Positions 8,847-33,557 of a DNA stretch of 64,000 nucleotides are shown here, piece after piece. Under the pieces are notes generated by a model, which was not told where the DNA came from, did no database searches, and saw nothing but the letters and a program-made list of their open reading frames with translations. Each line of letters starts with the position of its first letter. Position 1 is the first letter of the stretch. Made by a program: the position numbers and the translations under genes. The stretch is taken from the NCBI GenBank assembly GCA_964402565.1, contig CAYOCJ010000002.1:391340-455339 (forward strand). The letters are read 5' to 3'. Origin of the DNA: an uncultured Gammaproteobacteria bacterium (GTDB lineage: Bacteria; Patescibacteriota; Patescibacteriia; UBA1558; 2-01-FULL-52-15).

Positions 8847-10415
8847 TTATTGGGGGATCTTGTCGAAGCTGAACGTCGAGGTTGGCGTCGACGTTGTGGT
8901 GCTGGTAGCTCGCAGTTCTGCGGGCGTCAATGTTCGTATGATCTCGAGCGATCCCTTTTGCTCTACATCTTGGCCCAGAATGACGAGAAAATCAAGCTGT
9001 TTATAATTCCCCGCATCATCTTTCAGGTTCCATAATCGAGAGAGCGTCGTCGGCACGAATTCAAGCGGTATATTGGTTTCTGCCGTCACGCCGAAACGGG
9101 CCTGGAGATAGGCGAGGGTCAGTTTTTTTGAGCCATCGGTAAAATCATAGATCCGCGTCGTGGCATAGTCTTGTTTTGCGGCATTGCCTACGGCAACTGG
9201 TTTCATGCCTGCTTTCTCAAGTGACGTGCTGACGGTTGATGCGATATTCGGGATCGACGTTCCATTTTGGATCATTACCTGCGGGTCTTCATTATGAATA
9301 CCATTATCTTTGAAAATATTTTGTATGAGCGTCTGCAATTCCAAGAAATTGCCGGTCGCTGGCTGCAAAATATAGGCCCCATCGATAGAAGAAATGCCGC
9401 TGTGGAGATATCCGGTCGGCGAATCATCGAGGACCGCGCTATACATTTTTTTCATATCGATATCCTTGCCCAGATGGACCAGCTTCACCAATTCCCACGG
9501 CTCCATATCGGTCTTGGTATATTGATTGACGAGGTCGAATAGAGAAGTAAGTTTCAGAGGATTGAAGAGCGTATTGAATGACGCGAGTTTTTCTTTGGTC
9601 GCGAGAATGATCTTCTGCTGGCGCTTGCTGCGGGCAAAATCAGAACCCTCATTATTATTGCCGTGGCGCGAACGTGCGAAACGAAGCGCAGTCAGTCCGT
9701 CCATTTTTTGGCTGCCTTTCTTGAACGTAATGGTCTGTGTCTTAAAATCTGCGGTCGGGAATTCAGAGTCGCTGAAATCACGATCCACCGTGACTGTCAC
9801 GCCGCCGATCGTATCGATGACCTTGATAAAACCGTCGAAGTCCACGACGCCCATATAGTGGATCGGTATGCCGAAGGTCTTGCCGATCGTGTCCTTTGTT
9901 TTCTCGAACGCTGCTTCGAGCCCGTCCTTCTGGCTGAGGGCGTAAATATGATTGATTTTGATATAGGAGCCGGATCCGTCTGGCACGATGAGGTCGCGCG
10001 GTATCGAGATCATAGCGACTTCTTTCGTTGAAGGCTTGAGGCTTCCCAGAATGATCGTGTCAGTGAGATAGGGCCCTTCATGCCCGGGACCGCCGATGCC
10101 CATGAGAAGAAAATTGATCCGGTCGCTATCTTCGCCTTTTAATTTATTTGCTCCTGCTGAGAAAATATGCGTCAACTGCCGCATGATGAAGCCGTTTTTC
10201 ACGCCGACGAAGAATGAATTGTTCGAGCGGGAGATGATGGTGGTGCAGCTGGTGAGGATCAGGATGAGAACGATAAAAAAACACGAGAAGAATCTCATGC
10301 GCCGGCGCGGCGTTCGATCCTTGGGGTTCTGCTCCGGTGCGACCTGATCAAGTACCGTGGTGTCGAATCCTTGGGAAACGCCTCGATTGCTGCGATTAGA
10401 TGATTGCGTGTTCAA
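8847..10415 (-). CDS. LytR-CpsA-Psr (LCP) family cell-envelope phosphotransferase
   Basis: N-terminal TM helix, LCP core (INFLLMGIGGPGHEGPYLTDTIILGSL...ISIPRDL), C-terminal LytR_C-like region; exact start (10415 vs ~10298) uncertain. Confidence 0.7.
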   Translation of the reverse strand: MNTQSSNRSNRGVSQGFDTTVLDQVAPEQNPKDRTPRRRMRFFSCFFIVLILILTSCTTIISRSNNSFFVGVKNGFIMRQLTHIFSAGANKLKGEDSDRINFLLMGIGGPGHEGPYLTDTIILGSLKPSTKEVAMISIPRDLIVPDGSGSYIKINHIYALSQKDGLEAAFEKTKDTIGKTFGIPIHYMGVVDFDGFIKVIDTIGGVTVTVDRDFSDSEFPTADFKTQTITFKKGSQKMDGLTALRFARSRHGNNNEGSDFARSKRQQKIILATKEKLASFNTLFNPLKLTSLFDLVNQYTKTDMEPWELVKLVHLGKDIDMKKMYSAVLDDSPTGYLHSGISSIDGAYILQPATGNFLELQTLIQNIFKDNGIHNEDPQVMIQNGTSIPNIASTVSTSLEKAGMKPVAVGNAAKQDYATTRIYDFTDGSKKLTLAYLQARFGVTAETNIPLEFVPTTLSRLWNLKDDAGNYKQLDFLVILGQDVEQKGSLEIIRTLTPAELRATSTTTSTPTSTFSFDKIPQ

Positions 10416-10593
10416 ATGCGTATGTAATGAAGTGATTTCTGGTAGAAGCAGTATACAAAGTTACTGCGCTTGGGTCAATTTGTGCTCGATACTATTTTCT
10501 GCTATTCTGCTTGAAAGTTTTAGCGGTTTTACGTGTAGTATAAAATACGCTATACTACTTACTTGTTACACTAAAGTTAGGCATCTATTTCAT

Positions 10594-11145
10594 ATGATAT
10601 TGGATTTTCTGAAGCGCGCAGGGCTTCTCATCTTCGAAACATTCAAGGTAGTGTTGATCTCGCTGGCTATCATATTGCCAATCAGGTATTTTTTGATCCA
10701 GCCATTCTATGTCGAAGGCGCCTCAATGGAGCCGAATTTCTATTCAAAGGAGTATCTCATCATTGATGAGATCAGTTATCGCTTTCATAGCCCCGCCCGC
10801 GGAGAAGTGGTTGTCCTCAGGAATCCCCAGAATACAAGCCAGTTCTATATTAAACGCATCATCGGCTTGCCAGGCGAGAAGATAAAGATGGATCAGGGGC
10901 ATATGTATATAAATGATAAAGAATTGAAAGAAGCCTATCTTTCAGATGTCTTTGCAACGCAGGCTTCGATGCCTGAGCAAACCCTGGGCGCAGGACAGTA
11001 CTTCGTCATGGGCGACAATCGCGCCAATAGCCTTGATTCCAGGATCCTCGGTCCGGTGCCATTCCAGTATCTGATCGGCAGGGTTTGGGTCAGGGGATGG
11101 CCGTTTAATCGCATCAGTTTATTTGGCGCCCCCAGCTATAATTAA
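10594..11145 (+). CDS. lepB: Signal peptidase I
   Basis: GASMEPNF (catalytic Ser box), IKRIIGLPGE, GDNRANSLDSR; start taken at MILDFLKRAG (ATG 10594) after a divergent AT-rich intergenic region. Confidence 0.85.
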   Translation: MILDFLKRAGLLIFETFKVVLISLAIILPIRYFLIQPFYVEGASMEPNFYSKEYLIIDEISYRFHSPARGEVVVLRNPQNTSQFYIKRIIGLPGEKIKMDQGHMYINDKELKEAYLSDVFATQASMPEQTLGAGQYFVMGDNRANSLDSRILGPVPFQYLIGRVWVRGWPFNRISLFGAPSYN

Positions 11146-13450: not shown

Positions 13451-15184
13451 ATGCTTACAAAAACAAAAAAACTAATCCTGCTCACGCTTATCGTGACCTC
13501 TGTTGCGATAGGCTTTTTTATTTTTAGAAGCACTGCGGTATTTGCGCAAGCGTCCCTCGACTTCCCCACAAGTTTCGCTGGATTCAGTTCGCAAGATTTG
13601 AAAACCACGATCGAGAATATCGTTCGCATCGTTCTTGGCTTCATCGGATTTATCTTTTTGTTGCTGCTGCTCTATGCAGGTTTTGTATGGATGACGTCAG
13701 GCGGAGACGAGAAGAAGATCACGCGGGCAAAAAAGATCATCGCAAGCTCCGTGATTGGATTATTGCTGACGCTCTCGGCGTATGCCATCGCAAGCTTCAT
13801 AGTGCAGCGCCTGACCGGAGCCGCTGAGAATGGATCTGTCGGCAGCTCAAGTACTGGACCCGGAGGTTTTGGCTATGCGCTCGGCTCTGGTGCTTTGGAA
13901 AGCCATTACCCGGGACGCAATGCCCGCGATATTCCTCGCAATACCAATATCTACATCACGTTCAAAGAAGCTATGGATGTGAAGACCATTTGCGATCCGG
14001 GTCCTGACGGCACCTACGGAACTCCTGATGATCCAAATCGCGTCAATACGGCAAGCATACAGCTCAAAGATATGAATAGCCTGGAGCCTGCTGACTCGAA
14101 CGATACAGCGAACGACGATACGCTTGAGGGAATTACCTGTCAGCCGACGGACGCATCATTGAAGACCTTCAAATTCGACCCGACTGCAAACCTTGGCACG
14201 GGAACGGGTAATGTGCCGTATAATGTGATTTTGGTTCCGCATCAGATCAAAACCGCTGACAATGAAGATGCCTTAGCGTTCGGATATAGCTGGCGCTTCA
14301 CCGTGAACTCGGTTCTGGATGAAACGCCGCCAAAGATCATAAGCGTGTATCCGAATATGGGGGACATAGTGCCTCGCAACAGTATCGTGCAGATTAACTT
14401 CTCAGAACCAGTAGATCCGACCAATGCAGCAGGTTTTTATTCTCCAACGTCAACTCCGGCCTCGCTGTATAACAGTATTACTCTTGACGATCAACCAGCT
14501 CCAAAACCAGCGAATGCTTACTACTTAGCAGGAACGTATGCATCGGCCAATCAATATCAATCTACGGAATTTATTTCGAATGAACTCTGCGGTCAGAATT
14601 CTTGCGGCGAAAAAGTGTATTGTCTGCCCGGATTAATTACTATCTATGGCGAGGTAACCAGCGCTATTACTGATATGGCAGGCAATCATCTCGATGGAGA
14701 GTTCCCGGCACCGTATACATTTCCGTCAGGTGATGGCACGGCCGGAGGTAATTTCGACTGGCGATTCCAGACCACGAATACCCTGGACTTGAAACCGCCT
14801 TTGATGCTGACGCGAAATCCTGGCAGGAATGCGACTGATGTGGATGTGTACAAGCCTATCACCATGGATTTCAATAAAAAATTGTCGGCTTCGAGCCTGA
14901 CCTCGACCAATGTCGGCTTCTATCGCACCTATCCGTATCCAGGAGGCACGGCGTGGGACGATCAGATAAACTATTGGGTTAGTAAAGACGATACAAAGAA
15001 CTTAGATACTGATCCGGAAACCGAGACGCAGGTGATCATCGGCCATGATATTTTCAAACCGCTTACTCCGTATCATCCGGGCGCAAGTTCAGAGATCCGT
15101 GACGTGAGCCAAAACTGTTATTTCCCGGCTCAATGCGATGCGCCGCCCTATGACGGAGTAGGCAGTCTTGCAGAATGTAATTAA
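13451..15184 (+). CDS. Secreted/membrane protein: signal peptide + VirB2/TrbC-like helix-loop-helix pilin module + three SbsA-type bacterial Ig-like domains
   Basis: Signal peptide (AVFA|QA), then IVRIVLGFIGFIFLLLLLYAGFVWMTSGGDEKKITRAKKIIASSVIGLLLTLSAYAIASFIVQRLTG (two hydrophobic helices joined by a basic loop, W-M at the helix-1 end and LTG at the helix-2 end as in VirB2), then Ig-like repeats (PRNTNIYITFKEAMD..., PKIISVYPNMGDIVPRNSIVQINFSEPVDP...). Confidence 0.7.
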   Translation: MLTKTKKLILLTLIVTSVAIGFFIFRSTAVFAQASLDFPTSFAGFSSQDLKTTIENIVRIVLGFIGFIFLLLLLYAGFVWMTSGGDEKKITRAKKIIASSVIGLLLTLSAYAIASFIVQRLTGAAENGSVGSSSTGPGGFGYALGSGALESHYPGRNARDIPRNTNIYITFKEAMDVKTICDPGPDGTYGTPDDPNRVNTASIQLKDMNSLEPADSNDTANDDTLEGITCQPTDASLKTFKFDPTANLGTGTGNVPYNVILVPHQIKTADNEDALAFGYSWRFTVNSVLDETPPKIISVYPNMGDIVPRNSIVQINFSEPVDPTNAAGFYSPTSTPASLYNSITLDDQPAPKPANAYYLAGTYASANQYQSTEFISNELCGQNSCGEKVYCLPGLITIYGEVTSAITDMAGNHLDGEFPAPYTFPSGDGTAGGNFDWRFQTTNTLDLKPPLMLTRNPGRNATDVDVYKPITMDFNKKLSASSLTSTNVGFYRTYPYPGGTAWDDQINYWVSKDDTKNLDTDPETETQVIIGHDIFKPLTPYHPGASSEIRDVSQNCYFPAQCDAPPYDGVGSLAECN

Positions 15185-15185
15185 T

Positions 15186-18100
15186 ATGCATTTCAGGCTT
15201 TCATCACGATTGAAAAAGATCATTCTCGGGCTAGTACTCGCTGGAGGAGTCGCTGTCTTCACGCATAGTGCTCTCGCACAAGTTTCTGTGGATCTGCCGA
15301 CCAGCTTTGCCGGATTCAGTTCGCAGGATTTGAAATTGACGATCGCGAATATCGTGCGGATCGTTCTCGGGTTCATCGGAATTCTATTCTTGTTATTAGT
15401 TCTGTATGGAGGCCTGGTATGGATGACATCTCAAGGACAGCCTGACAAGATCAATAGAGCAAAGAAAATAATCGCATCGGCAGTTATCGGTTTGCTTATC
15501 GTATTATCCGCTTATTCCATCGCAGGATTTATCGTCGGCAGTTTACAGGGAGCGGTCAGCCCGACACCGCCAGGGCCTCCTGCTGTTTGCGGTGATGGCG
15601 CAGTTACCGGCGGTGAGCAATGTGATGATGGCAATACGCTGAATGGAGATGGCTGCTCTGCATTCTGTGCCATTGAAGGCGTTATCCCTGGATGCACATT
15701 GCCGACAGTACCTGGTAGCGTGAAAGTATGTAATGTCACCAATCCTGCCTATCGATCACAGGTCGCTGTTATCAATGGATATAACTTCGGAGCAAGCGTT
15801 GGAACGGTCACTATCAACGGCGTTGCGGTAACGCCGGTCGCTTGCGGACCATCATCTGGCTGGAGCGGCGGTTCTATCGTGGTAGATATTCCTGCAACGA
15901 TACCGCTGGGCACTATCGGAGCGCAGAACGTGGTCGTTACCCGGTCAGATTCTGCTACATGTGCTGCCGGGAATTGCGGTGTCACGAACGTCAGCATTGG
16001 TTCAAGCCCGTTCATCAGGTGTATGACGCCGAATTTCGGACCGTCAAACGGTACCGGCGACATCAAGGTTGAAGGCGGAAACTTCGGCACCGTACAAGGT
16101 AATATTGAAATGGAAGGAGCCGCGCCTGCGCCCGCGAACCGATTCCTCGTAGGAGCTGCGAATCTCATCGGACCGTGGACTAATGAAGAAGTGCACTTCA
16201 GAGCGCCGGCAGCCGGGGCCCCTCAACAAGCAGTGTCAGGCGATGTAGTGCTGGTCACTTCTACAGCAGCGCGAAGCAATGGCATGCCGTTCACCGTGAC
16301 CTGTTCTGTGGCAAGCAGCGCTTCATCAGAGTGTGCGACTAACTGTTGCACGCCTTCATTGCAATGCCGTCCTATGCTTGAATGTGTTGCAGCTGCTGCA
16401 GGAGGGCCGTTCATCTCGAGCATTAATCCGAATAATGGAGAAGAAGGGAATTATGTCACGATCAATGGAAGCGGCTTTGGAGCCGCCAGGGGAACGAGCG
16501 TTTTGCATTTTTTGTGGCCTGACGCAACCAATACAGATTATCCAAATAGTTTCCCATCGAACCCTGCTTGTACAGCAAACTGGTCAGACACCCAGATCAT
16601 CATGGAGGTTCCGCCAGTGGGCGGGGTAGGAGATGGCCCTGATTCACCGCCGAATGGCATCGTATGGGTGACCACCGGCGTGGGAGATTCAAATCAAGTT
16701 CCATTTACGATCAATGATATCGTGCGCCCGGGCCTCTGCAAAGTTTCACCGACATCTGGCTTCCCGAATCTGCCCCCGCCTTTCCATCTGAACGGAAATA
16801 ATATGTCTGGTGCTGCTCAGAAGATCTTTTTCGGCGTACCTCCGGGCATTGATGCGACCAGCCCGAACTTTATCGATGCGCAGAATGCGGATGGCATGAT
16901 CCCGAATCTGATAGCAGGCACGACGACCGTTGCATTTTCTGTGGGTGTCGGCGCTGCAACTCAGTATTCGAACCCATTGGACTTCGCAGTGCTCGGTGTC
17001 GCTGCAGGAGATCCTATCATCAATTCGGTCACTCCACTGAGCGGACCATCAGGAACCTATGTGACCATACAAGGTGCGAATTTTGGAACGACGATCGGGA
17101 AAGTGTTCCTGAGCCCCATCGGACATCCAGGATGCGGCCCCGGTTCTCCGTCGCCTACGGGCAATGATTGTCTTGCAGATATTGCATTTCCTGCGATGTG
17201 CAGCACTGATTTCTGGCGTGACGACCAGATCATTGTGAAAGTTCCGAAGACCGGACCTCCAGGCAATACGCCAGCGGGGAATTATTTCTTCATCGTTCAG
17301 CGGGCGAGCACGCCGGTGAAAACATCTCAAATGGTTTCGATACCTAATACGAATGGTATCTTTGTAAAAAATGACGCGTTGCCTGTCACCCCAGGGTTGT
17401 GCCGCATCAATCCCGTCGGAGGTCCTGCAGGAACGCCGGTAGATTATTTTGGTGAAAATTTCGGAGTCACCCCTGGTCCGCAAAGCTCAATTTGGTTCGA
17501 TAAGGATGCCGGCGTGACGACAGGTTTCACCTGGACCGATACGCAAGTCCTTGGCGCCGTCGTACCGGGCAGCGCTATTACGGGCACGACTACCGTTCAG
17601 CACAATGACCGTAATCGCAGCAATCCGATCCCGTTCTTTGTCGGGTCATGTACTTCAAACCTACAATGCGGCAGCGCTACGTGTTGCAGCGGCGTGTGTC
17701 GCGTGGGTGCTTGCAATGCAACGACGCATGATGAAAACAACTGGCAGTTCACGTCAGGACAATATGATTTCGATCTTGAACGCAGACAGCAATGCACCGA
17801 GGGAATGCAGACACCGACGCCATTCCCGTATGATCATGTGAATATGAACTGGGATGGATTCTTTGACCCGGTCATCCTGCCGGTCTATGACGAGAATGAT
17901 CCAATAACCAATGCGCCTCTGGACGTTGCGATCGCCGCAGAATTTAATAGGCCTCTAAATTATGCGACCATCGAAGGTCCGTTGCCGGCATTTACTGACA
18001 ATGGTGTCCGCATTTTCAGATGCAATGCTGCAAGCCCGACGTTTAATGGCACCGGATGTACTGAAGTTACCGGTGATGGAGATTTTGCACCGCTCGGCAG

Positions 18101-21100
18101 CGTTGGCTTCAAGTGGACATTGCATAGTGGCCTGAAATTGAATCCGGAGACGTGGTATGAAGTTCGTCTTGATGACGGGTCCGGAACGCCGACAAGCCGC
18201 ATACAGGCAGTCGACGGCAGCTTCTATAAAGGAAGCCAATTCCTCGGCGATGATACTTCTTTGCAGGAGCCTGATGACTTTAAGTGGCATTTCAGAACAC
18301 GGACCGTGGTACAGGGAAGCTGCGAGATCAATGCGGTCTCGCTCAATCCGGCGACGTTGACCGTGCCGGTCGGCGGCATAGGCGGGCCGATGGTCGCCGT
18401 CCCGACCAGCGCTCAGTGTTATGTGTGCGGCGGCGATTATCTGTATGACTGGGATCCAAATCCTATCGGCGCAGCTCCATATGCAACCTATAATCCCGTC
18501 AATCCGCCTTTTTCCTATCAGACTAATTTTTCAGGTTTGAATATAACGCCTGCACCGGTAGATATAACGGCGACATTGCGCGGGAGCAGCAATCCATCAG
18601 GTATTCCGATTACGAGCAATACCGCAGCGCTGAGTGTCGCCTTTATACCGCCGTATGTGACGAGCCATTCTCCTGATTCAAGCTGTGAAGCGGTGTGCAG
18701 GAACGTAGCGCCCTTTGCGACATTCAATATGAATGTCCGCTCGTCAACGATCACGACTGCCAATATACAGATACGACAATGTAATGCAGCGGATCCGCTG
18801 TGTACGACATATACAGGCGGGCCAGTGCCGATCACGCTCGTCCCATTACCAGCTGCACCAGATACCAATCGTGTCGACATCACGCCGACCGGCGGTTTGC
18901 TTCCAGCAACAAAATACCGCGTTATATTGACTAACGGCATTCAGAATTCACAGGGCCAGGGTCTTACATTATTGAACTATCCTTCAGGCGCGCCGACATC
19001 GTATTCATGGACTTTCCAGACTTCATTAGCGATTTGCGAAGCTGATGGTCTCAATGTGACGCCGGTCACTGCAACCATACCATCGCTTGGCGGCACGCAA
19101 GATTATATTGCGCATCCGACCGCTACGCTGAATTGCGGATCAGGCCCTGTGCCAGTTGGCATTGATGCAAATCGATACAACTATGGCTGGTACTCAAATA
19201 ACTTCACCGTAGCAACGATGATGTCGAGCACGTTGAACCAGGGCACTATGCAGGGAGTTAGTGCAGTTTTGGGTATACCGCCCGGAATAACGCAAGCGCA
19301 TGTAGATATGACGAATAAGGCTGGCAATCCAGCTGTCAATCTTTCAGCTGAAGGCGAAGTGGTTGTAAAAGATTCCAGAAAGCCGATAAATTTCATCGGC
19401 CATAGGCCTGATGATGCGCCGCATTCACCGCCGGAAAACGCTTCAGCTGCATGTGCGGTGCAGCCACCCGGAACGGCCGATCCGCTGCAATGCGCGAATC
19501 AATGCAGGAACGTACAGGTCAGTGCATTCTTCAGCACTCCCATTGATCCGAATTCATTTGCATCAGGACCTCCTTCAGGACTTGTTGCGCGCTATACGTT
19601 CGATGATGGAACCGGCAAAGATGTCGTCGGCGGCAATACTGCTGTTCTTGCAGCTGCACCGAGCGACCCGGCTGCTGTGTCAGGCGCACAATGCGTACTC
19701 AATAGATGTATGGACCTTGACCTCGGAGCTCCGCCGTTCAGCGCAAGTTCTGATAACATGACGGTGACTAATTTCAGCGGACTGCCAACCAATGAAATCA
19801 GCATTTCGGCTTGGGTAAGCGCAAGGACATTCACCGGCGTGGGCCAGAGAATTCTTGGCCATGATTGGGCGACTACCAATACTCCTGGGTGTACAGCTGG
19901 TCAGGCAAACGTTGGGGGTAACCCAGCGAACCCGCCATGCGTCTATAATCATGGATGGCTCTTATATGCGTATGCTCCGGGCGATTTCTATTTCGGAGTT
20001 TACGGTTCGCCGTGGAACGATCAGCATGTTGCTCGCTTTACAGCACCGACCGCATCTCCAAATACGTTGTATCATCTGGTAGGCACCTATGATGGATCGA
20101 TCGTGAAACTGTATGTGAATGGCGTGGCAGCTCCAGATGCAAATGGCTGGAGCCCGTCAACGCCGTCACCGATCGTACTTGATACCACAGGCGATGTAGT
20201 GTTCGGCTCTTCATTCGATGGCGCTCTTGATGATGTTCAGATCTATAATCGCGCCTTGTCACCGGTCGAGGTTAGCCAAGTACGCTTGATGGCCACTGGC
20301 GCTGCAGGCGCATCGGCCAATTTTAATGTGACTGACATGGCCACTGGTGCTGTCGTACCTGGAACGATCTCGGTCCATAATTACCAAGACCCTGCCTCGG
20401 GTGTTTGTACGATAAATACAGCAGTCGTTTGTAATCCCTCTCTCGCATGTCCGGCAGGAGCAGGTGAATGCAATTATACGCGGGGACGTGTCGACTTTAC
20501 CCCGGCGCTTGCATCTACCGCTGCATCTACTGCAGGGCTGGTTTCGAAGTATAGTTTCGACGCAGGGACTGCTCAAGATGAAGTTGGTGCGAATAATGGC
20601 ACGCTGAACGGAGGAGTAATCGCAACAGCGCCGAATGCTTCAATTCCGTACCTGCAAGGAGGCATGAGCCTTGATGGCGTCGATGATAATATTTCATTCC
20701 CCGCAGGGACAAACTATGACTATCCTAATTTTACGGTTTCATTCTGGGCCAAGGCAAATACGGTGGCATTGAAGCATGTCACCACAATGATCGGCAAGGG
20801 AGATTGGAATGATCCTGCGAATCACAATTGGTACCTAGGGTTTAAAGGCCAAGACATAGCCCCGCGAGATGCAACCAGTGTTTCATTCGTCTATGGTGTG
20901 CCCTGGGATAGCGGAGCATCATTAGCAATGTCCAGCTTTGATGCAACGCAATGGCATCACTATGCCGGCGTAGCTACTCCGACAAACGAGTATCTCTATA
21001 TAGACGGCACATTGCGCGCATCGATTGCGGCCGGCCACGCAAGCGTTAGCAATGGCCAGCCGGGTACGATCGGACACACAAGCTATATACCAAATCTGCC

Positions 21101-24100
21101 ATTTTTCAAAGGCGAGGTCGATGACGTACGTATTTTCAATCGCGCATTATCTGCCGGCGAAGTGAATCAGATCCGCCAAGAGGCCTTGGGCACTGCCGCA
21201 TCTCCTGGCGTCTTTGCACCAAGCACATCGTATAAAGTAAATATTTGTAATGCCGGTTCATGCTCATTGCAGCCGATCCTGAGCGATGAAGGTATGCCGT
21301 TCGTGACGCCATTGAATTTTGCCTTCAAAACAAAGGATGATGTTTGCCAGATCAGCTATGTCGAAGTATCGCCGAATCCGGCAGAGTTCACTGACCGTAG
21401 ACTCGAGTGTCTAGCGTCTGATGCGCCGCTTTGTACGAATGCAACGCCAAAAGCCATCATAGCTCAGGCGAAAGACCAGACCGGTTCTGATCTAACGGCC
21501 GCATATACCTGGCGGAAGACCATTGAGAAAGGTGGGTCCTATTCAAGTCAGATGTATGTACTGGATCAGTCAGGCACTCAGGCCCAGGTTCAGCATAAAG
21601 GCGTCCTCGGTATTGATTATAATGAGGTCACTGCTGATGGCGGCGTCGCCGGCACCGCTAAAGCTCAGGGCAGAATGGATTTCTCATTCTGCGAGAAGCC
21701 ATGGATAGGCGATACTGGTCCGAATACCGCATACTATCTGGATCCGACCTATGACTTGAAACTTTCATATTGCCGCGATGCGGCAGGTTTGAGCGAGCCG
21801 ACTGCTACCAGTACGCTCCCGAATTTGCCGGCACCGCATATCATTCGCTCAGGAACTGACTTCACATTCGGCGGCGACCTGATCAAGGAGCATGTGTTTA
21901 TCGTCGGTACGAATGTGAACTCTACCGGCACGCTGACCAGCGGAAATCCGGTACTGACGCCGGTTACCGGCATATCAACGACGAATTATCATCTCGGCGA
22001 TTTCGTGTATATCAAGCTCGATGCCCGCGATCCAGAAGGCGATTCATTCTTGTATACGATGACCGGCGAAGGCGGCGCTGATGCATTGCCTGCATCTGCA
22101 AGCTTCAATCCGCGCACCGGTGTCTTCATGTGGGTAATAGACAAAATACCGACGACGAATGGAGACGCGAATGCAAATAATGACTTTGCCATCACCTTCA
22201 ACACCACGCCTGCCTCGACCGGTGCTTCGACGGTCTATATCAACGTTGTGCCGACAACCACCACAACGCCAGTGAACCCTCCGGTGGTGAGCTTCACCAG
22301 TGCAACGGTGCCAGCTCCGCCGCCGCCAGCAATTATCGAGGGCGGAACCATGAATATCGATTACGGCAAGGAAGTCATCTTCAATACCAACGTGACCGGC
22401 TATGGCGGCGGTGCAGCCGGTGTCGTCAAATCATTTGTCTGGGATTTCCAGGACTCAGGCCTTACCTCGTATACTGATATTGGCGCGCCCACCTATAGTG
22501 CTCGGCACACGTTCCTTCAGTCCGGATTGCATCAGGTTACGTTTAGAGTACAGAATAGCGCCAATGCCTGGTCATTGCCGGCAGTCGTGAACATTATTGT
22601 CCGGCCAAAGACATCAATGCTTGATCCGTCCCTGTCTTCGCGCTCAGTGGCAATTGCAGGTTCTCCGTTCAAAGCGCTTATTGACGGTTTGCGTTCATTA
22701 TTCGCGCGAACCGCATTTGGTCAGTCACAGGGCGCTGCACCGTCAGAGGTGGCTGCTGTTTCAGTCGACGATGCTTCAACAACGAATAACCTCGTGAATG
22801 TACAGCTCTCGTGGAGAAATAACGGGACCTATAACGGCATCAAGATTTATCGAGATAATGCTGCCGTGCCGATCTATACCTCGCCAGCTGGTCCAATACC
22901 GACCACCTACACTGACCCAGGCCGTACCATCGGCACCGACTATGTCTATAAGGTCTGTGGGATTATAGGCACAGCCGAGAAATGCACTGAAGTCACGACG
23001 ACCGCTCGCCGCGTAGACTATGACATTATCGTTGCGCGCGTCTACCGGAATATTGGCATGCTTTCTGTGCGTGAATGGTATGAGGCCTATGCGCCAAATC
23101 CGACCGGCAGTCCGGCTTCGATAACGGTTGACGGTTATGACGCGATCAAGGATGGCTCCTCGGTATATGTAGGCATGGCTAACTGCGTTGACCCGGTGGC
23201 CTGTACGGGCAACCCGGGCATCTATACGAATATTTTGCTCCTGAGTTATAACGAGAATGCTCAGCAGTCTACCAAGGATATTTTCGACCAGCTCGTCAGC
23301 ACTATCCGTATTAATGAACGGTTGGTGACCCGCGACAATGGACGCGGCGCCTCGGATACCTGCAGCGGTGATGCAACGATCTCATGCGATACTGGCCATG
23401 ATGCGGTTTGTCAGGCAAAGAATGCCGGTCTCTGTACATCAGCGAAAGCAGAACTTCGCCGTGACCATAAGCGCGTCGTGGACTTGCATAGCATCAAGGC
23501 AAGTTTGGATGGCTATGCGCTCCAGCACCATTTCTGCGATGATGGAACCAATTCACGGGCGTGCAATGTTGATAGTGATTGCGGAGCGGGGCGGCGATGT
23601 ATTGCAGCGTACCCATCGCTCTCTTCAGGAAGCTATTTGGGAGGCATTTCAACGAGCCAGTGGCCGTCATGGAACGCAACCCTGGCACAGGATTTGAACA
23701 GCAGTTCATTGCCGAAAGATCCTATCAATAAATTCGGCGCAAATTTCTATTCAGCAACTCCGGCAAGCTGTCTGACACTTGTCGATGGGGCAGGCAATCC
23801 CGTGACCGGCCATGACAAGGACACGTGCTGGAACCAGAGAACATTGAAGATGCAATGCCAGAGGTATTCGGAAGTCTATGTCTACAAGAATTCCTTAGGA
23901 TCAAATTATAATCTATACGCGAATGCCGAAGCTCGAACGTGGCGCTGGGCAAACCTCGACACGCATGTCATTCTGACTGACCCGACGCTTGGCAATTTGT
24001 GCTTAGACAATGCGCGCGTCAATGCGGTGTGCGGCAATGGCGTCGTTGAGCGCTACTGTTCGAACAATAGTTCACAGTCATGCGCAGCGGATGCTGATTG

Positions 24101-26837
24101 CGGCGCTGGTAATACCTGCGTCGGTGAGCGATGCGACGGCGGATTTACGAATTATTGCGATTACCATTTTGGAGAAGCACGCTGGAATACCGATTTCACA
24201 GTCGGTTGTAATGCAACCTGCAGCGACTGGGGTGATCCGTATGCGCCAAACACCGCAACTGCCGGCCGCGCTGCATGCGGAGGAGCGTGTGGCGACGGTA
24301 TTGCTCAGACGCCTGCTTCGTCTCCGCCGGGCCCAGAACAATGCGATGGCGCAGCGCCTGCAACAACACATTGCACCAGCGGCGGGGCTGCGTATTGTAC
24401 AACGTCATGCCAGGTAGCATGTACGCAAGGCAGGCCATATAGCGGTACGTGCAATGACGGTATCGTACAAGCAGGCGAAGTGTGCGACGAAGGAAATATT
24501 TTGAACGGAACACCTGGTCATTGCAACCGAGCTTGCTCGGGCTATGGTTCTTTCTGCGGCGACGGAACGCTGACCCCTACTACTCAGACAGATCTGGGCT
24601 GCACCTGTGATTCGGCAGTCAGCTGTACGGCAGGCAGAGCTGTTATGGGCGCTGTGTGTGCCCGTTCATGCGCGGCTGCAGGACCAGCGCATCTGTATTC
24701 CTGCGTCAGCAATACAGAAGAGTGCGACACAGTCGCGGGGCTTACTAATTATAGCTGCCCTGCAAATTCAACATTGTATTGCGATACACAGTGTAACCGG
24801 GCTTGTACTGCAGACCTGAGAAATGATACTGCGGGCAACCGCCAGAGCATCCCGGTCTATGAACATTATTATAATGTTGCCAATGATGAGGATTTCGATT
24901 ATACAACCTTGAAAGTAGCTGATGCTCCCTATACGACCAAAGGCATCGCATTCTATGCAAACCCGCTAGGCGCATGCCCTGGACCAAGCGGCGTTACCGT
25001 TAATCGTTATGCGAGCACGACCAATAAGGATATTATCCTTAGGACATCGCTTCCTGCAGGCTCATGGACGCTTCTCGGCCCCGAGTTTTGTGCCTACACA
25101 GGAGCAGTAGCGGCAGATTCCAATATTGTGCCGGTTTACGACTGGGCATATTCGCCAAGTTCGAACCCGAAGACAAGTTTGCCGTCTGATTCGGATCATA
25201 AATTCTCGCGCAGCAGCTCGACAGCGCCGATCAACGGTGAAGGAACGAGTTATGTGATCCAGAATTCAGGATCGCCGATCTTCTGGGCTCGCCTCGGTCC
25301 ATTGCAGGAAACATGCGGCAATGATGTTCTCGAAGGCCTCGAAGAATGCGAACCAGGCACATACCAAGTGCCGACCGCTGAACAGGCGACGAGCGATAAT
25401 CGCCAGTATCAATGCGGCGCCGTATTTACGCCGAATGCATGCAGATTGTATGGAGGCTGGTGCGGCGATGGAGCAAAGAATGATCCATTCGAACAATGCG
25501 ATGAAGGTTTGCGATTCGTCTGTTCGGGGAATGCTGCAACGACCTGCAAGAATGATGATGATTGCAGCAAGCTCGGCTACGGCACCTGCCTCGGCAATGG
25601 CGCGCCCTGTAATAATGCGGCAGGAAACTGCACCTATTGCACTAAGTCATGCGGCAATGGCCTGATACCGCGCAATTATTGCGGCGACGGCATCGTGAAC
25701 TGCGGTGTGGACGCTATCTGCGGTAATGCAGACGATGTAGAGATCTGTGATGACGGAGCCGATAATGGCAAATCCTTGAAATGCAATGAGACGTGCAGCG
25801 GTTTGACCGGTACCGTATGCGGCAAGAATGGCGTCGAGAGATTCTGCAGCAATAACTCAGCTAATAAATGCGACACCCCGGGTAATCAAACGCTCTGTAC
25901 TACCGGAGGAGGCGTCTGCACTGGTGAAGTGTGTGACGATGGCGTCAACAATGGCCGCTGGACCAATACCTGCAGTAATAATGCAGATTGCAGGACTGAT
26001 GCTGATTGCGGCGCATTCGGCCCTTGCGGATCAGGTACGCCGCATGCATTCTGCAATTTCAGCTGCTTGGGCCCGACGGTTCCGTATTGCGGCGATGGCG
26101 TCGTGGAGGCAAGAAATGCTGGTCCTGATGGTAAGATCGTTTGTAGTAATGATGCTACGAAGACCTGCACGCAAGATGCTGCTGGTGACGCATATTGCAG
26201 AAGCCTTCCTGGCGGGACTCCCGCGGATGCGTGCAATAAAGATTATGTGACTGAGGTTTGTGACCTTGGCGCTGCGGTGAATGGCCAGCCAGGACAATGC
26301 AATGCGTCCTGTACTGGTCTTGCTCCATCACAATGCGGTAATGGCACCATTGATAATGGACGATGCACTATTAATGTGAGTAAGCCATGCACATCTCCTT
26401 CGGATTGTACTTCTGCTGAGGGGCAATGCCGGGGGACTGGGACTTGTACACTGAATGCGAATAAAACATGTCAGGATGATAGTGGCTGCTTGGCCGGAGA
26501 AGGTACCTGTGCAGGAGTAGAGACTTGTGACCAACCTTCGTCAGCGCCAGTCTTGCAGGCATGTAATGACGACACCTGGGGAGCACCTGGTAAGCCTGGT
26601 CTACAAACTGTCGGGTGTAACCTCTGTGTCTCTCAAAGTACCCAATGCCATGCATTCGGTTTGAAGATCTGGTCTGATGGAGCAGATGTTGCTTACCTGA
26701 ACGGGCATATGATGCTGCTTGATTTGGCGCCGCCGGGAGCACAATGCGTCGCAGATCCGTCACCGAATGGCGCTGATTATTCTGATGCCATTGCCGAAAG
26801 CCCAGCTCAGCCCAACAGTAATAAATGTGTTCCATAG
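15186..26837 (+). CDS. Giant (about 3880 aa) cell-surface protein: VirB2/TrbC-like pilin module + TIG/Ig-like domains + two LamG domains + PKD + FN3 + large cysteine-rich repeat array
   Basis: N-terminus paralogous to 13451 ([81 protein letters not shown]). First [27 protein letters not shown] repeat, then TIG-like repeats ([20 protein letters not shown]). LamG pairs ([19 protein letters not shown]...[41 protein letters not shown]...[15 protein letters not shown]). PKD (FVWDFQDSG...[17 protein letters not shown]). At least ten CG[DN]G...E.CD.G repeats through the C-terminus. Start taken at MHFRLSS (15186). Confidence 0.85.
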   Translation: [3883 protein letters not shown]

Positions 26838-31326: not shown

Positions 31327-32223
31327 ATGTTTGAAGACATAAAAAAGAATGATGAGAATGTGACCGCTGGCAACCCTTCAGCAGTTGAAGATATGTTTGG
31401 CAAAGTTGACCCAACCCCAGATATAAAGAGCGCGGTGCAGAGCGGTAAATTAACTCCGGTAGCTTCATCAATGGCAGCTCCTCAACCGCCGATGCCGCAG
31501 GCGCCGATGGGTACCAAGATCGGACCTCCGAATCCATTGACCAATCTTTCACAGCTCGATCAATGGAGCAAAAAACCTGCTCGCCGCAGCATGAGAATGA
31601 TTTTGATCGTTGTTGCAGCTTTGATCGTCGTCGGCGCTGCTATTGCCTACTTCTTTTTTATGACGCCGACAGAGGGTTCGAATGCAACTGCTAAAAATAC
31701 TACAGCGAATACCAATGCCACAACGAACACCGATACTACCGCCAACGCACAGCCAACACCTCCTCCGACTGCGAATGAAAACGGTAATCAGGCTCCAAGC
31801 ATACCATCCAATGCCCTCATTGACTCTGATGGCGACGGGCTGACAGATGTAGAAGAAGCTGTCGCTGGCACTGATCCTCATCTAGCTGACACTGATAATG
31901 ACGGTTTGAATGATCGCGATGAACTCTATGTACACAAAACAAACCCATTGTTAGCTGATAGCGATAACGACGGCCTCTCTGACCGCGACGAGATCTTTAC
32001 CTATAAGACAAATCCTATGAACCCGGACACCGATGGCGATACCTATCAGGATGGGGTTGAGGTGCAAAATGGGTATAATCCGAATGGCCCCGGAAAACTT
32101 CCTCCGACAGAAACTCCACCGAACGCACCTATAGATCCAGCCCCAACGCCCGCACCTGCTCCCACACCTTCTCCAGCTCCTACACCTACGCCCGCACCTG
32201 CTCCGGCTCAATATACATACTAG
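31327..32223 (+). CDS. Type II membrane protein with thrombospondin-type-3-like calcium-binding repeats and a Pro-rich tail
   Basis: Pro/Gln-rich N-segment, TM helix (ILIVVAALIVVGAAIAYFFF), T/N-rich linker, DSDGDGLTDVEE / DTDNDGLNDRDE / DSDNDGLSDRDE / DTDGDTYQDGVE repeats, then a PAPTPAPAPTPSPAPTPTP tail. Confidence 0.7.
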   Translation: MFEDIKKNDENVTAGNPSAVEDMFGKVDPTPDIKSAVQSGKLTPVASSMAAPQPPMPQAPMGTKIGPPNPLTNLSQLDQWSKKPARRSMRMILIVVAALIVVGAAIAYFFFMTPTEGSNATAKNTTANTNATTNTDTTANAQPTPPPTANENGNQAPSIPSNALIDSDGDGLTDVEEAVAGTDPHLADTDNDGLNDRDELYVHKTNPLLADSDNDGLSDRDEIFTYKTNPMNPDTDGDTYQDGVEVQNGYNPNGPGKLPPTETPPNAPIDPAPTPAPAPTPSPAPTPTPAPAPAQYTY

Positions 32224-32249
32224 TGCTAAAATAATTAATCCCTATTCGC

Positions 32250-33557
32250 ATGCCAGACGAGCAACAGCCATTAACAGCCGAACAGCAACCTCAAGCTCCC
32301 GAGGCTTCGATGCCGCAGGCATCTGCGCCCTCTGGTTCAATTTATACCATGCCGGATAAGTTCATGATGGGAGGCGGGCAGCCGCGTTTTTCAACTGGCG
32401 CAGCACCCGCAGGCTCTTCAGGCGGCGGCGGTTCAGGCAAACGGATGGTGATCATCATTGCTATACTGGCCTTATTTTTAGGCGGCATGACAGCCGGAGC
32501 TTACTTTTATATCAATAGCGGAGGAGACTTCTTTGGTTTGCTTTCAACAAATGAGCCTGTAGCGCCAGCAGTTCCGAACCCGCCGCCAGCCACCAATCAG
32601 CCAGTTGCGAATACCAATACAACACCTGAGAAACCGCAAGATGATCAATCAAAACTTGCTCGCGATGTGCAGCGTTCGAAGGATTTGGTCGTTCTTGCGA
32701 AAGCCCTCCAGGATTATTTTGCAAAATATAATGCATTTCCTCAGATCTTAGACTCGATTCCGAAAGATATGCTGGCAGAGCTGCCAAAGGATCCCTTGTC
32801 AGACAAGGCCTATGAGTATACGCCGCTGGATAATCGTGCTTCATACGGCATCGGCATTGTTATCGAGAAAGAGTTAACTTACAACGGCAAGACCTATCAG
32901 TCTGGTCCTGTTGTTCTGCATTCAGAGGGCTATCAGACAGCAACGTCTACACCGCCAATTACGGATCAACCAGTACCGCCGACCCCTGCCCCTGTTGATG
33001 TGAGCAATCTCGATTCAGATTCAGATGGTCTGACAGCCGCAGAAGAAAGTTTATTCGGCACGTCACCTTCGAACCCTGATTCAGACTCTGACGGGTACCG
33101 AGACAATGTGGAAATTAAGAATTTTTACAGTCCGGTGGAAACAGCTGCGGTGAAATTAGACCAGGCCGGCCTCGTGAAATTGTATACGAACGATGTTCAA
33201 AAGTTCAGTTTCTATTATCCGAGTTCCTGGGTCGTGAATGCGCCTGATGCGGACGGAGCTGAAACTCTCGTCACGACAGGGACTGGCGAAAATTTCAGCG
33301 TCTCGGTGAAGGAGAATGCGGACAATAAGACTTCCTGGGAATGGTATACGCAAAATATCAGCCATGACTATAACCCAAACAGCGTGTCCATCGTGCAGAT
33401 CAGCGGACATGAAGCGATCAAAACATTGGACGGTCTGCAGGCATATCTGGCTGTTGGCGGGAAAGTATATCTCATCACGTATAATCTGAATACTGAGTCA
33501 GTGATCCGATACCCATCCATCTTTGCGATGATGCTGGATCATTTCACGCTTCATTAA
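32250..33557 (+). CDS. Type II membrane protein with pseudopilin-like (GspG/type IV pilin-like) motif and TSP3-like repeats
   Basis: Pro/Ala-rich N-segment, TM helix (MVIIIAILALFLGGMTAGAYFYI), LAKALQDYFAKYNAFPQ...LPKDPLSDKAYEY (resembles GspG ALEGALDMYKLDNSRYPT...LPQDPWGSDYQ), then DSDSDGLTAAEE / DSDSDGYRDNVE repeats. Confidence 0.6.
   Translation: MPDEQQPLTAEQQPQAPEASMPQASAPSGSIYTMPDKFMMGGGQPRFSTGAAPAGSSGGGGSGKRMVIIIAILALFLGGMTAGAYFYINSGGDFFGLLSTNEPVAPAVPNPPPATNQPVANTNTTPEKPQDDQSKLARDVQRSKDLVVLAKALQDYFAKYNAFPQILDSIPKDMLAELPKDPLSDKAYEYTPLDNRASYGIGIVIEKELTYNGKTYQSGPVVLHSEGYQTATSTPPITDQPVPPTPAPVDVSNLDSDSDGLTAAEESLFGTSPSNPDSDSDGYRDNVEIKNFYSPVETAAVKLDQAGLVKLYTNDVQKFSFYYPSSWVVNAPDADGAETLVTTGTGENFSVSVKENADNKTSWEWYTQNISHDYNPNSVSIVQISGHEAIKTLDGLQAYLAVGGKVYLITYNLNTESVIRYPSIFAMMLDHFTLH

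What the first reader, a model, noticed from the sequence alone, without database searches (positions are those of the whole stretch)
13538..15561. Paralogous VirB2/TrbC-like pilin hairpin fused to the N-termini of two consecutive surface proteins, one 3889 aa long
Both ORFs (13451 and 15186) begin with a signal peptide followed by a near-identical segment of about 90 aa. Example: LDFPTSFAGFSSQDLKTTIENIVRIVLGFIGFIFLLLLLYAGFVWMTSGGDEKKITRAKKIIASSVIGLLLTLSAYAIASFIVQRLTG. This is two hydrophobic helices joined by a short basic loop, with W-M closing helix 1 and LTG after helix 2. That topology and those landmarks match conjugative pilins of the VirB2/TrbC family (compare Agrobacterium VirB2: ...GISWMFGRAS...ASFLGKTLTG). 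The DNA of the two copies is also about 80% identical by eye, pointing to a recent duplication. Canonical VirB2 pilins are about 100 aa. A pilin module carrying about 3700 aa of adhesin domains, with no VirB4/VirD4 gene nearby, would be an unusual pilin-anchored adhesin.
Basis: inference. Interest (0 to 1): 0.85.

Follow-up and report, generated by a model that had tools for sequence, protein, structure and literature searches.

The report
Pilin-headed giant surface proteins, Patescibacteria
Two neighbouring genes of an ultra-small (Patescibacteria) bacterium each start with a complete conjugation-type (VirB2-like) pilin and continue into large adhesin-like surface domains; this gene pair is old and found in hundreds of related species, not a recent oddity, but I found no paper that describes pilins of this type carrying cargo.

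Summary
ORF A (13451-15184, 577 aa) and ORF B (15186-26837, 3883 aa) share a signal peptide plus a two-helix module of about 90 aa (63% identity over 124 aa). The similarity stops exactly where stand-alone 115-125 aa pilins of relatives end.

The module scores above Pfam's cut-off for PF18895 (T4SS_pilin). It scores below cut-off for TrbC/VirB2 and for a Mycoplasma ICE pilin-like family. It aligns in register with mature Agrobacterium VirB2 (hhalign E 6e-5).

The "recent duplication" reading is wrong. In-register DNA identity is 67%, and synonymous sites are close to saturated. The A+B pair lies in a conserved housekeeping block (LepB-HisS-YqeY-A-B-TSP3) in 67 of 79 related loci, and at least 557 species genomes encode a relative of A. 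Most named records are class ABY1 groups.

The modules evolve in concert. Within a genome A and B are 63% identical; across genomes the figure is 46-47%.

There is no VirB4 or VirD4 in the window. A published survey reports VirB4 elsewhere in 3 of 4 checked relatives.

Best reading: these are modular VirB2-type pilins that hold adhesin passengers outside the cell, possibly as minor or tip subunits of a T4SS pilus. The main rival is a plain membrane anchor.

I rate it a new variant of a known kind, of moderate interest.

The parts
13451..13552 (+). ORF A signal peptide (residues 1-34). The A32-Q33-A34 motif suggests signal peptidase I cleavage after A32 or A34.
   Evidence: Translation. Helix 4-27 in the AF2 model. 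A32 is invariant across stand-alone and fused pilins.
13553..13822 (+). ORF A pilin module (residues 35-124): two hydrophobic helices joined by the basic loop WMTSGGDEKKITRAKK, ending ...RLTGA.
   Evidence: PF18895 at 36.6-40.5 bits against a cut-off of 26.6. Hairpin pLDDT above 90. Ends at the same column as stand-alone pilins. hhalign to VirB2.
13823..13885 (+). ORF A Gly/Ser-rich flexible linker (residues 125-145).
   Evidence: pLDDT below 50 for residues 120-141 in the full-length model.
13886..15184 (+). ORF A extracellular passenger: three Ig-like (Big_5) beta-sandwich domains with conserved cysteines, plus the stop codon.
   Evidence: Pfam Big_5 E 1.9e-16. AF2 beta-sandwich domains. Foldseek matches to Ig-like domains of LdtMt2, the S-layer protein SbsC and cadherins. 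Invariant cysteines.
15186..15284 (+). ORF B start (ATG one base after the stop of ORF A) and signal peptide (residues 1-33, A29-L30-A31 motif).
   Evidence: Orthologue P0164 starts at the equivalent position.
15285..15554 (+). ORF B pilin module (residues 34-123).
   Evidence: PF18895 at 37.8 bits. 68 of 90 residues identical to the module of A.
15555..26837 (+). ORF B passenger of about 3760 aa: Pro-rich linker, Cys-rich DUF4215/myxo_disulf repeats, TIG, Big_5, two LamG_3, PKD, and a long Cys-rich C-terminal region. It has 164 Cys, no further hydrophobic segment and no LPXTG motif.
10357..11145 (+). Signal peptidase I (LepB), conserved upstream of the pair. This is context, and the enzyme is presumed to cleave the pilin signal peptides.
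   Evidence: Peptidase_S26. TIGR02227 at 157.7 bits; TraF model only 36.5 bits against a cut-off of 100. Present upstream in 57 of 65 related loci.
31327..33557 (+). Two type-II membrane proteins with TSP3-type Ca-binding repeats, often conserved downstream of ORF B. They may belong to the same surface module.
   Evidence: Found downstream of B in 24 of 40 and 19 of 40 loci.

Best explanation
ORF A and ORF B are modular VirB2-type (Pfam PF18895) pilins of a Patescibacteria (CPR) bacterium related to Komeilibacteria (class ABY1). Each has a Sec signal peptide, then a complete pilin module, then a flexible linker, then an adhesin-like passenger.

Proposed mechanism:
1. Sec export and signal peptidase I cleavage leave the two-helix hairpin in the cytoplasmic membrane. 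The basic loop faces the cytoplasm and both termini face outside, so the passenger (3 Ig-like domains in A, about 3760 aa of TIG/Big_5/LamG/PKD/Cys-rich repeats in B) is extracellular. This step follows from the sequence, the topology rules and the structural model.
2. Because the module keeps the full pilin signature, the proteins are taken up by the genome's T4SS (encoded elsewhere) as minor or tip subunits of a pilus built from the stand-alone 118-aa pilin. In solved conjugative pili the loop faces the lumen, which places the termini at the outer face. The passengers would therefore hang outside and mediate attachment to a host cell, a role that VirB5 or PrgB-type adhesins play in other T4SSs. 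This step is inferred.

The pair is an ancient core-chromosomal cassette, and its two modules evolve in concert.
For: Domain identity:
- PF18895 above cut-off in both proteins; TrbC second.
- NF045849, the Mycoplasma ICE pilin-like conjugal transfer protein, just below cut-off over the full profile.
- hhalign to VirB2 in register.
- The Aeropyrum conjugation pilin 8dfu is rank 4 in Foldseek, not significant.

The module is a complete pilin:
- Stand-alone pilins end at ...SL(T/Q)GAV, exactly where A and B continue.
- A-B similarity stops at residue 124/123.

Topology and exported passenger:
- Basic loop.
- Only three hydrophobic segments in B, all N-terminal; 164 Cys; no LPXTG.
- Ig-like folds.

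The pilin signature is under selection in the fusions:
- The module is the best conserved part of family A (majority fraction 0.58 against 0.45 for the passenger and 0.40 for the signal peptide).
- G66, G77, W80, T82, S83, G85, K94, G103 and F116 are invariant or nearly so.

Concerted evolution: within-genome A-B identity is 0.628, against 0.460 for cross-genome A-B and 0.470 for orthologues, Mann-Whitney p 9e-28.

Conservation:
- The pair is adjacent in 67 of 79 loci, with conserved synteny.
- At least 557 species genomes encode a relative of A.

Partners exist:
- A stand-alone pilin, P0008, is recorded on the same 512,989-bp NCBI contig as ORF A.
- VirB4 is reported in 3 of 4 relatives carrying the pair (PMC12102498 Table S1).
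- Some loci place a stand-alone pilin directly beside A (L011).

Literature:
- VirB2-like pilin arrays are essential in a Saccharibacterium (PMC10633639).
- No PrgB-type adhesin was found in Patescibacteria (PMC12102498).
- In conjugative pili the loop faces the lumen (PMC11722321).
Against: - No T4SS gene lies in the window or in the 9.4 kb of upstream DNA fetched. The pair sits among housekeeping genes.
- No pilus made of PF18895 pilins has been seen experimentally; the FEMS review PMC12857230 calls it only a possibility.
- A 3760-aa side passenger may be hard to carry through a peptidoglycan wall on a growing pilus.
- Fold searches cannot tell this hairpin from any other helical hairpin.
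- TrbC and NF045849 scores are below their curated cut-offs.
- Concerted evolution could come from gene conversion alone, without any co-assembly constraint.
Confidence: 0.5

Rival explanations
1. Membrane anchor only. The pilin hairpin has been co-opted as an N-terminal two-helix anchor that tethers the giant adhesins to the cell membrane. It does not polymerise and has no link to a T4SS.
For: - Housekeeping neighbourhood with no T4SS gene nearby.
- Patescibacteria are monoderm, and neither A nor B has an LPXTG motif or any other anchor.
- One relative carrying the pair is listed without VirB4, although that assembly is only 619 kb.
- Tandem poly-pilin proteins show that the module is used in several fusion formats.
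Against: - A simple anchor should need only hydrophobicity. Here the full pilin signature (W-M-T-S, G66/G77/G85/G103, the basic loop, the terminal L-x-G-A) is kept across the whole radiation, and the module is the best conserved part of the protein.
- A and B modules are kept alike within each genome.
- The module boundaries are exactly those of stand-alone pilins.
Confidence: 0.33
2. Pro-protein model. The passenger is cleaved off at the L-x-G-A junction, much as RP4 TrbC and R27 TrhA lose C-terminal residues before cyclisation. This would yield an ordinary pilin plus a released or non-covalently attached surface protein.
For: - C-terminal trimming of VirB2-family pilins by LepB-like TraF/TrhF is documented (PMC11722321).
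- The junction is an invariant G-A motif followed by a disordered linker.
- An S26 signal peptidase gene is conserved three to four genes upstream.
Against: - The upstream peptidase scores as ordinary signal peptidase I (157.7 bits) and not as TraF (36.5 bits against a cut-off of 100).
- Stand-alone pilins already end at this motif, so no trimming signal is evident.
- Making a 3760-aa protein as a leaving group is costly for a reduced genome.
Confidence: 0.07
3. The resemblance to VirB2/TrbC is convergent. PF18895 would then be an unrelated two-helix membrane family, and the name 'pilin' would be a misnomer.
For: - TrbC and NF045849 hits are below their curated cut-offs.
- No PDB sequence hit.
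- Fold searches are non-specific.
- No PF18895 pilus has been visualised.
Against: - Three independent profiles of conjugation pilins (PF04956, NF045849, and CONJScan T_virB2 in PMC12102498 Table S3) all hit over their full length.
- hhalign to VirB2 is in register from the start of the mature pilin to its C-terminus.
- PF18895 genes lie near virB4 in 1135 assemblies and are essential within a T4SS cluster.
Confidence: 0.05
4. One reading: the two modules are alike because of a recent tandem duplication in this genome.
For: - 74-76% amino-acid identity over the mature module in this genome (68 of 90 residues; 0.74 over the profile-aligned columns).
- A 123-nt core with 79.7% DNA identity.
Against: - The pair is conserved with the same order and neighbours in 67 of 79 loci from distinct species, down to about 31% identity of A.
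- Orthologues in near relatives are closer than the paralogues: 0.87 and 0.93 against 0.74.
- Only 31 of 68 conserved residues share a codon (0.46, against 0.36 expected from codon usage), and overall nucleotide identity is 66.7%.
- The passengers share no detectable similarity.
Confidence: 0.02

Closest known systems
VirB2-like pilins of Patescibacteria (Pfam PF18895 T4SS_pilin; Quinonero-Coronel et al. 2025, PMC12102498; Wang et al. 2023, PMC10633639)
   Same: Same domain family, scored above the curated cut-off. Same signal peptide plus two-helix hairpin. The genes occur in tandem. Same phylum.
   Different: The described pilins are small and often sit beside virB4. Here a complete pilin carries 450 aa or about 3760 aa of extracellular domains, and the genes lie in a housekeeping block far from any T4SS gene. 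The papers I read do not mention fusions. Runs of consecutive 'VirB2' hits away from virB4 in ABY1 genomes in their Table S3 may be these proteins, counted without comment.
Canonical conjugative pilins: VirB2 (T-pilus), TrbC (RP4), TraA (F), archaeal CedA1/TedC
   Same: Helix-loop-helix with a basic loop. The W-M motif closes helix 1 and L-T-G follows helix 2. Processing by signal peptidase. In-register profile alignment to mature VirB2.
   Different: Below the PF04956 cut-off. No adjacent VirB3/VirB4. The C-terminus, which is free or cyclised in canonical pilins, is extended by a very large passenger. The host is monoderm.
Modular type IV pilins of Streptococcus sanguinis (PilB, PilC; Raynaud et al. 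2021, PMC8179133)
   Same: Same design logic: a complete pilin module with a functional adhesion module grafted on its C-terminus, used as a minor subunit to give the filament a function.
   Different: Unrelated filament superfamily (type 4 filaments, class III signal peptide, prepilin peptidase, one long N-terminal helix). This is an analogy only.
Mycoplasma ICE 'Mbov_0395 family pilin-like conjugal transfer protein' (NCBIfam NF045849)
   Same: An 80-residue pilin-like hairpin of a monoderm conjugation system. The modules match positions 7-78 of the 80-position profile.
   Different: Scores of 22-36 bits are below the cut-off of 40. Those proteins are small and encoded on ICEs.
Pam pili of CPR bacteria (Troman et al. 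2026, bioRxiv 10.64898/2026.03.03.709456)
   Same: CPR surface filaments built from Ig-like domains and thought to mediate host contact.
   Different: Pam pilins have a cleaved signal peptide, no VirB2-like hairpin, and assemble by donor-strand exchange with chaperones. They are reported mainly in Saccharimonadia and Microgenomatia. I did not test for homology.

Membership tests
Pfam PF18895 T4SS_pilin (Patescibacteria VirB2-like pilins) | Profile match at or above the curated gathering score | tested here: met
   A scores 36.6 bits as the whole protein and 40.5 bits as the module alone. B scores 37.8 bits. The cut-off is 26.6.
Pfam PF18895 T4SS_pilin (Patescibacteria VirB2-like pilins) | Signal peptide followed by two hydrophobic helices joined by a short basic loop | tested here: met
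Pfam PF18895 T4SS_pilin (Patescibacteria VirB2-like pilins) | Small stand-alone protein of about 100-150 aa | tested here: not met
   A is 577 aa and B is 3883 aa. Stand-alone relatives end where these proteins continue.
Pfam PF18895 T4SS_pilin (Patescibacteria VirB2-like pilins) | Encoded in or near a virB4-containing T4SS cluster | tested here: not met
   No VirB4/VirD4/VirB6 in the 64-kb window or in the 9.4 kb of upstream DNA fetched. In the literature 1135 of 1948 assemblies have a pilin gene near virB4, so this feature is frequent but not universal.
Pfam PF18895 T4SS_pilin (Patescibacteria VirB2-like pilins) | Polymerises into a T4SS-dependent pilus | not testable with these tools
   This needs filament isolation or cryo-EM. 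It has not yet been shown for any member of the family.
Canonical VirB2/TrbC pilins (Pfam PF04956) | Profile match at or above the gathering score | tested here: not met
   19.4-23.9 bits for A and 21.5 bits for B, against a cut-off of 27.9, although the match covers the full profile.
Canonical VirB2/TrbC pilins (Pfam PF04956) | Homology to a structurally characterised pilin | tested here: inconclusive
Canonical VirB2/TrbC pilins (Pfam PF04956) | Free or cyclised C-terminus after helix 2 | tested here: not met
   The C-terminus continues into a linker and passenger. Whether it is cleaved afterwards cannot be tested here.
Modular type IV (T4P) pilins | Class III signal peptide with a prepilin-peptidase motif and a single long N-terminal helix | tested here: not met
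   The sequences show a Sec-type signal with an AxA motif and a two-helix hairpin. The resemblance is functional only.
Sortase-anchored (LPXTG) surface adhesins | C-terminal LPXTG motif, hydrophobic segment and charged tail | tested here: not met
   No LPXT[GAS] motif and no C-terminal hydrophobic segment in A or B.
Pam pilins (CPR donor-strand-exchange pili) | [quoted passage not shown] | not tested
The architecture described in the paper lacks the hairpin.

The most novel reading that the evidence does not exclude
ABY1-class Patescibacteria carry a conserved pair of modular VirB2-type pilins, one short and one giant. Both would be incorporated at the tip or along a T4SS pilus and would serve as its host-binding adhesins, filling the VirB5 or PrgB role that surveys have not found in this phylum. 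The within-genome homogenisation of the two pilin modules would then reflect the need for both to fit one pilus lattice. This would be the first case of cargo-bearing subunits in the conjugative-pilus superfamily. It would also give a concrete candidate for how these epibionts attach to their hosts.
Probability: 0.3. Interest if true: 0.8.

Novelty: new variant of a known kind. Interest (0 to 1): 0.6.

Why it matters
How Patescibacteria attach to and exploit host cells is an open question. Their T4SS and its VirB2-like pilins are essential in the one species tested, yet the system's function is unknown, no pilus has been seen, and no adhesin has been assigned to it. A conserved, core-chromosomal pair of pilin-headed adhesin-like proteins gives a specific, testable candidate for the missing adhesin.

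It would also extend the 'modular pilin' principle from type IV pili to the conjugative (VirB2) pilus superfamily. The concerted evolution of the two modules is an independent hint that they share a partner.

On the practical side, T4SS surveys that count PF18895 or T_virB2 hits as 'pilins' may include proteins of 500-3900 aa; the cited survey did not filter its hits by protein length.

Tried and rejected
- PDB sequence search with the module profile gave only a spurious GPCR hit.
- No tRNA genes and no Rfam family matches at gathering score were found in the window.
- The search for T4SS genes found none: all ORFs of 150 aa or more in the window, plus the 9.4 kb of upstream DNA fetched through the ParA look-up. 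I could not retrieve the rest of the 513-kb source contig, so whether this genome has VirB4 is unknown. I relied on published Table S1 for four relatives.
- The first codon-identity script had an indexing bug. I discarded its output and reran it.
- I considered whether the upstream S26 peptidase is a TraF-like pilin maturase. I rejected this because it scores as ordinary signal peptidase I.
- I considered the Pam pilus system and rejected it, because its architecture and assembly differ.
- 'Recent duplication' is rejected.
- Gene conversion against protein-level co-evolution is unresolved. In the window, identical-codon use is only slightly raised (0.46 against 0.36). It is higher in some lineages, for example L077 at 0.73 and L028 at 0.83, the latter in a 31% GC genome where codon bias inflates the figure.

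Full report
**1. What is in the sequence**

Two consecutive + strand ORFs occupy 13451..15184 (A, 577 aa) and 15168 or 15186..26837 (B). The ATG at 15186 lies one base after the TAA stop of A. It corresponds to the start of orthologues such as P0164. I therefore take B to be 3883 aa.

Both proteins begin with a hydrophobic signal-like helix and an AxA motif. A segment of about 90 aa follows, made of two hydrophobic helices joined by a basic loop.
- BLASTP gives 57% identity over 147 aa, E 1e-40.
- A full-length comparison gives 62.9% identity over residues 1-124 of A against 5-123 of B. Nothing is detectable beyond that point.
- AlphaFold2 with an 18-sequence alignment predicts helices 4-27, 47-81 and 87-127, with pLDDT above 90 over most of the hairpin.
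- The loop carries 4-5 K/R, while the mature N-terminal segment is acidic. By the positive-inside rule the loop sits in the cytoplasm and both termini sit outside.
- B has no other hydrophobic segment. It has 164 cysteines and no LPXTG motif.

**2. What the module is**

- Pfam's best match is PF18895 T4SS_pilin, above the curated cut-off in both proteins: 36.6-40.5 bits and 37.8 bits against 26.6.
- PF04956 TrbC/VirB2 is second, at 19-24 bits, below its cut-off of 27.9, over the full profile. Unrelated two-helix families score far lower.
- NCBIfam adds a third conjugation-pilin profile, NF045849 (Mycoplasma ICE pilin-like conjugal transfer protein). It matches positions 7-78 of 80, just below cut-off.
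- I validated the A. tumefaciens VirB2 sequence against PDB 8cue/8exh and compared it with the module profile. hhalign aligns module residues 47-122 with VirB2 53-118, which is the mature pilin from near its N-terminus to its C-terminal LTG. E is 6e-5, probability 65%, identity 31%.

Homology to VirB2-type pilins therefore rests on sequence profiles. It is good for PF18895 and suggestive for canonical VirB2.

**3. The module is a complete pilin**

- The nearest relatives of the module alone are stand-alone proteins of 114-125 aa from Komeilibacteria and related metagenomes.
- In the alignment they end at ...SL(T/Q)GAV. This is the same column where A continues with a Gly/Ser linker and B with a Pro-rich linker.
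- One such stand-alone pilin, P0008 (118 aa), is recorded on the same 512,989-bp NCBI contig as A. It lies between two class II aminoacyl-tRNA synthetase genes (Pfam tRNA-synt_2).

**4. The passengers**

- The full-length model of A shows the hairpin, a disordered linker (residues 120-141), and three beta-sandwich domains.
- These domains resemble the Ig-like domains of L,D-transpeptidases, the S-layer protein SbsC and cadherins.
- B carries DUF4215/myxo_disulf Cys-rich repeats, TIG, Big_5, two LamG_3 domains and a PKD domain.
- These are typical extracellular binding or spacer domains.

**5. Genomic and phylogenetic context**

The window is core chromosome: ParAB, RelA, TopA, DprA, Pth, Der, LytR, LepB, HisS, YqeY, then A and B, then a LamG-HINT protein, two TSP3 proteins, YbeY, FtsA, FtsZ, NrdR, PrfA, ComEC, EF-G, EF-Tu, ribosomal proteins and SecY. 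It contains no VirB4, VirD4 or VirB6. The 9.4 kb of upstream DNA that could be fetched contains none either.

- Family A (T4SS_pilin plus Big_5) has 93 clusters in the protein database. Some are already auto-named 'Type IV secretion system pilin/Bacterial Ig-like domain'.
- At least 557 species-representative genomes encode a relative.
- In 67 of the 79 loci fetched, an A-type gene is followed directly by a second gene that starts with the pilin module, in most loci a giant one.
- Upstream synteny is conserved: YqeY in 59 of 74 loci, HisS in 63 of 69, LepB in 57 of 65, LytR in 45 of 58.
- Downstream of B, the TSP3 protein is found in 24 of 40 loci.
- The records that name a lineage are Komeilibacteria, Falkowbacteria, Uhrbacteria and 'Parcubacteria group'. 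Members of these groups are listed as class ABY1 in PMC12102498 Table S1.
- A profile search of 1.84 billion representatives finds 65,942 family members at E of 1e-3 or better. Among the best 150 there are 31 proteins with an N-terminal module plus a long extension, 22 stand-alone pilins, and 91 proteins with several modules.

**6. Not a recent duplication, but concerted evolution**

- In register, the two mature modules are 66.7% identical in DNA. Only a 123-nt core reaches 79.7%.
- Of 68 conserved residues, 31 use the same codon (0.46, against 0.36 expected from codon usage).
- Near relatives have orthologous modules closer than the paralogues. L007 gives A-A 0.87 and B-B 0.93, against A-B 0.70-0.75.
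- Across 67 genomes, within-genome A-B identity averages 0.628. Orthologous comparisons average 0.470 and cross-genome A-B comparisons 0.460. The Mann-Whitney p is 9e-28.

The two modules are therefore repeatedly homogenised, or they co-evolve, within lineages. The stand-alone pilin forms its own, more conserved lineage: 81% identity to stand-alone orthologues and 59-60% to the A and B modules of its own genome. I could not decide between episodic gene conversion and co-evolution at the protein level.

**7. Literature**

- VirB2-like pilins (PF18895 and TrbC profiles) were found in 1948 Patescibacteria assemblies that also have VirB4. In 1135 of them the pilin gene is near virB4, and arrays of 2-11 pilin genes occur. 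No PrgB-type adhesin was found, and fusions are not mentioned (PMC12102498).
- That paper's Table S1 lists VirB4 as present in the genomes behind loci L009, L022 and L049. It is listed as absent in the 619-kb assembly behind L034.
- The pilin array and the T4SS are essential in Southlakia epibionticum (PMC10633639).
- A recent review treats a T4SS pilus in these monoderms as a possibility only (PMC12857230).
- In solved conjugative pili the inter-helix loop faces the lumen. Some pilins lose C-terminal residues through LepB-like TraF/TrhF (PMC11722321).
- The 'modular pilin' concept exists for type IV pili (PMC8179133).
- The newly described Pam pili of CPR bacteria are a different system.
- My searches found no paper describing VirB2-type pilins with cargo.

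**8. Interpretation**

Shown: A and B are exported, membrane-inserted proteins. Their N-terminus is a complete PF18895 pilin and their C-terminal part is extracellular and adhesin-like. They form an ancient, syntenic cassette.

Inferred: the module keeps the pilin function. Three results support this.
- The module is the best conserved part of family A (0.58, against 0.45 for the passenger and 0.40 for the signal peptide).
- It keeps the family's invariant residues.
- It is held alike between A and B within each genome.

The favoured model is therefore a minor or tip pilin that displays adhesins on a T4SS pilus. I give this about 0.5 as a whole. The first half of the model, a pilin-anchored surface adhesin, is much more secure.

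The chief rival is a plain membrane anchor (about 0.33). C-terminal cleavage (about 0.07) and convergent resemblance (about 0.05) are minor.

**9. Verdict**

The pilin assignment is supported. 'Recent duplication' and 'unusual one-off' are not supported. The architecture is widespread and catalogued in databases, but I found it undescribed in the papers I could search. I rate it a new variant of a known kind, interest about 0.6.

Noticed in passing
P0131, P0134, P0135 and about 90 of the best 150 family representatives: Many PF18895-family proteins are 'poly-pilins', with 2 to 12 or more tandem pilin hairpins in one polypeptide and no signal peptides between them. Examples are P0131 (552 aa, 6 modules) and P0134 (1775 aa, 12 modules). 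This is consistent with an N-out/C-out topology per module. I found no description of them in the papers I read.
   Followed up: partly
window 26860-31245 (+): The third large surface protein (1461 aa) has an N-terminal TM anchor, two LamG_3 domains and Cys-rich repeats. It ends in a C-terminal HINT domain (PT-HINT/Hint_2, below cut-off) with ...VHNAKCTTPRCGGGP and no toxin domain after it. It shares short segments with ORF B. Only 1 of 40 related loci has it at this position, so it is probably a lineage-specific insertion.
   Followed up: partly
window 31327-32223 and 32250-33557 (+): These are two type-II membrane proteins with thrombospondin-type-3 (DxDxDG) Ca-binding repeats. They are conserved just downstream of ORF B in 24 of 40 and 19 of 40 loci, so they may belong to the same surface module. 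The second has no Pfam hit at E of 1e-3 or better.
   Followed up: partly
window 10357-11145 (+), and loci L007-L085: A signal peptidase I gene is conserved three to four genes upstream of the pilin pair in 57 of 65 loci. It scores as ordinary LepB and not as the pilin-maturing TraF. The linkage may simply reflect conserved housekeeping synteny.
   Followed up: yes
loci L007, L008, L011-L014 and many others: Many species-representative MAG records that carry this Patescibacteria cassette are titled 'uncultured Gammaproteobacteria bacterium'. One is titled Candidatus Methylomirabilis (L076). These look like placeholder or mislabelled taxonomy.
   Followed up: no
L006/L048 5774-11798; L011 10022-10393: Variants of the cassette exist. 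A Falkowbacteria genome has two A-type genes (836 and 862 aa, one with a LamG domain) before the giant gene. L011 has a stand-alone 123-aa pilin directly upstream of A.
   Followed up: partly
PMC12102498 Table S3: ABY1 genomes show runs of two to three consecutive 'VirB2 (T_virB2)' hits flagged as not near virB4. These may be the A/B fusion genes counted as ordinary pilins. Protein lengths could not be checked with the tools here.
   Followed up: no
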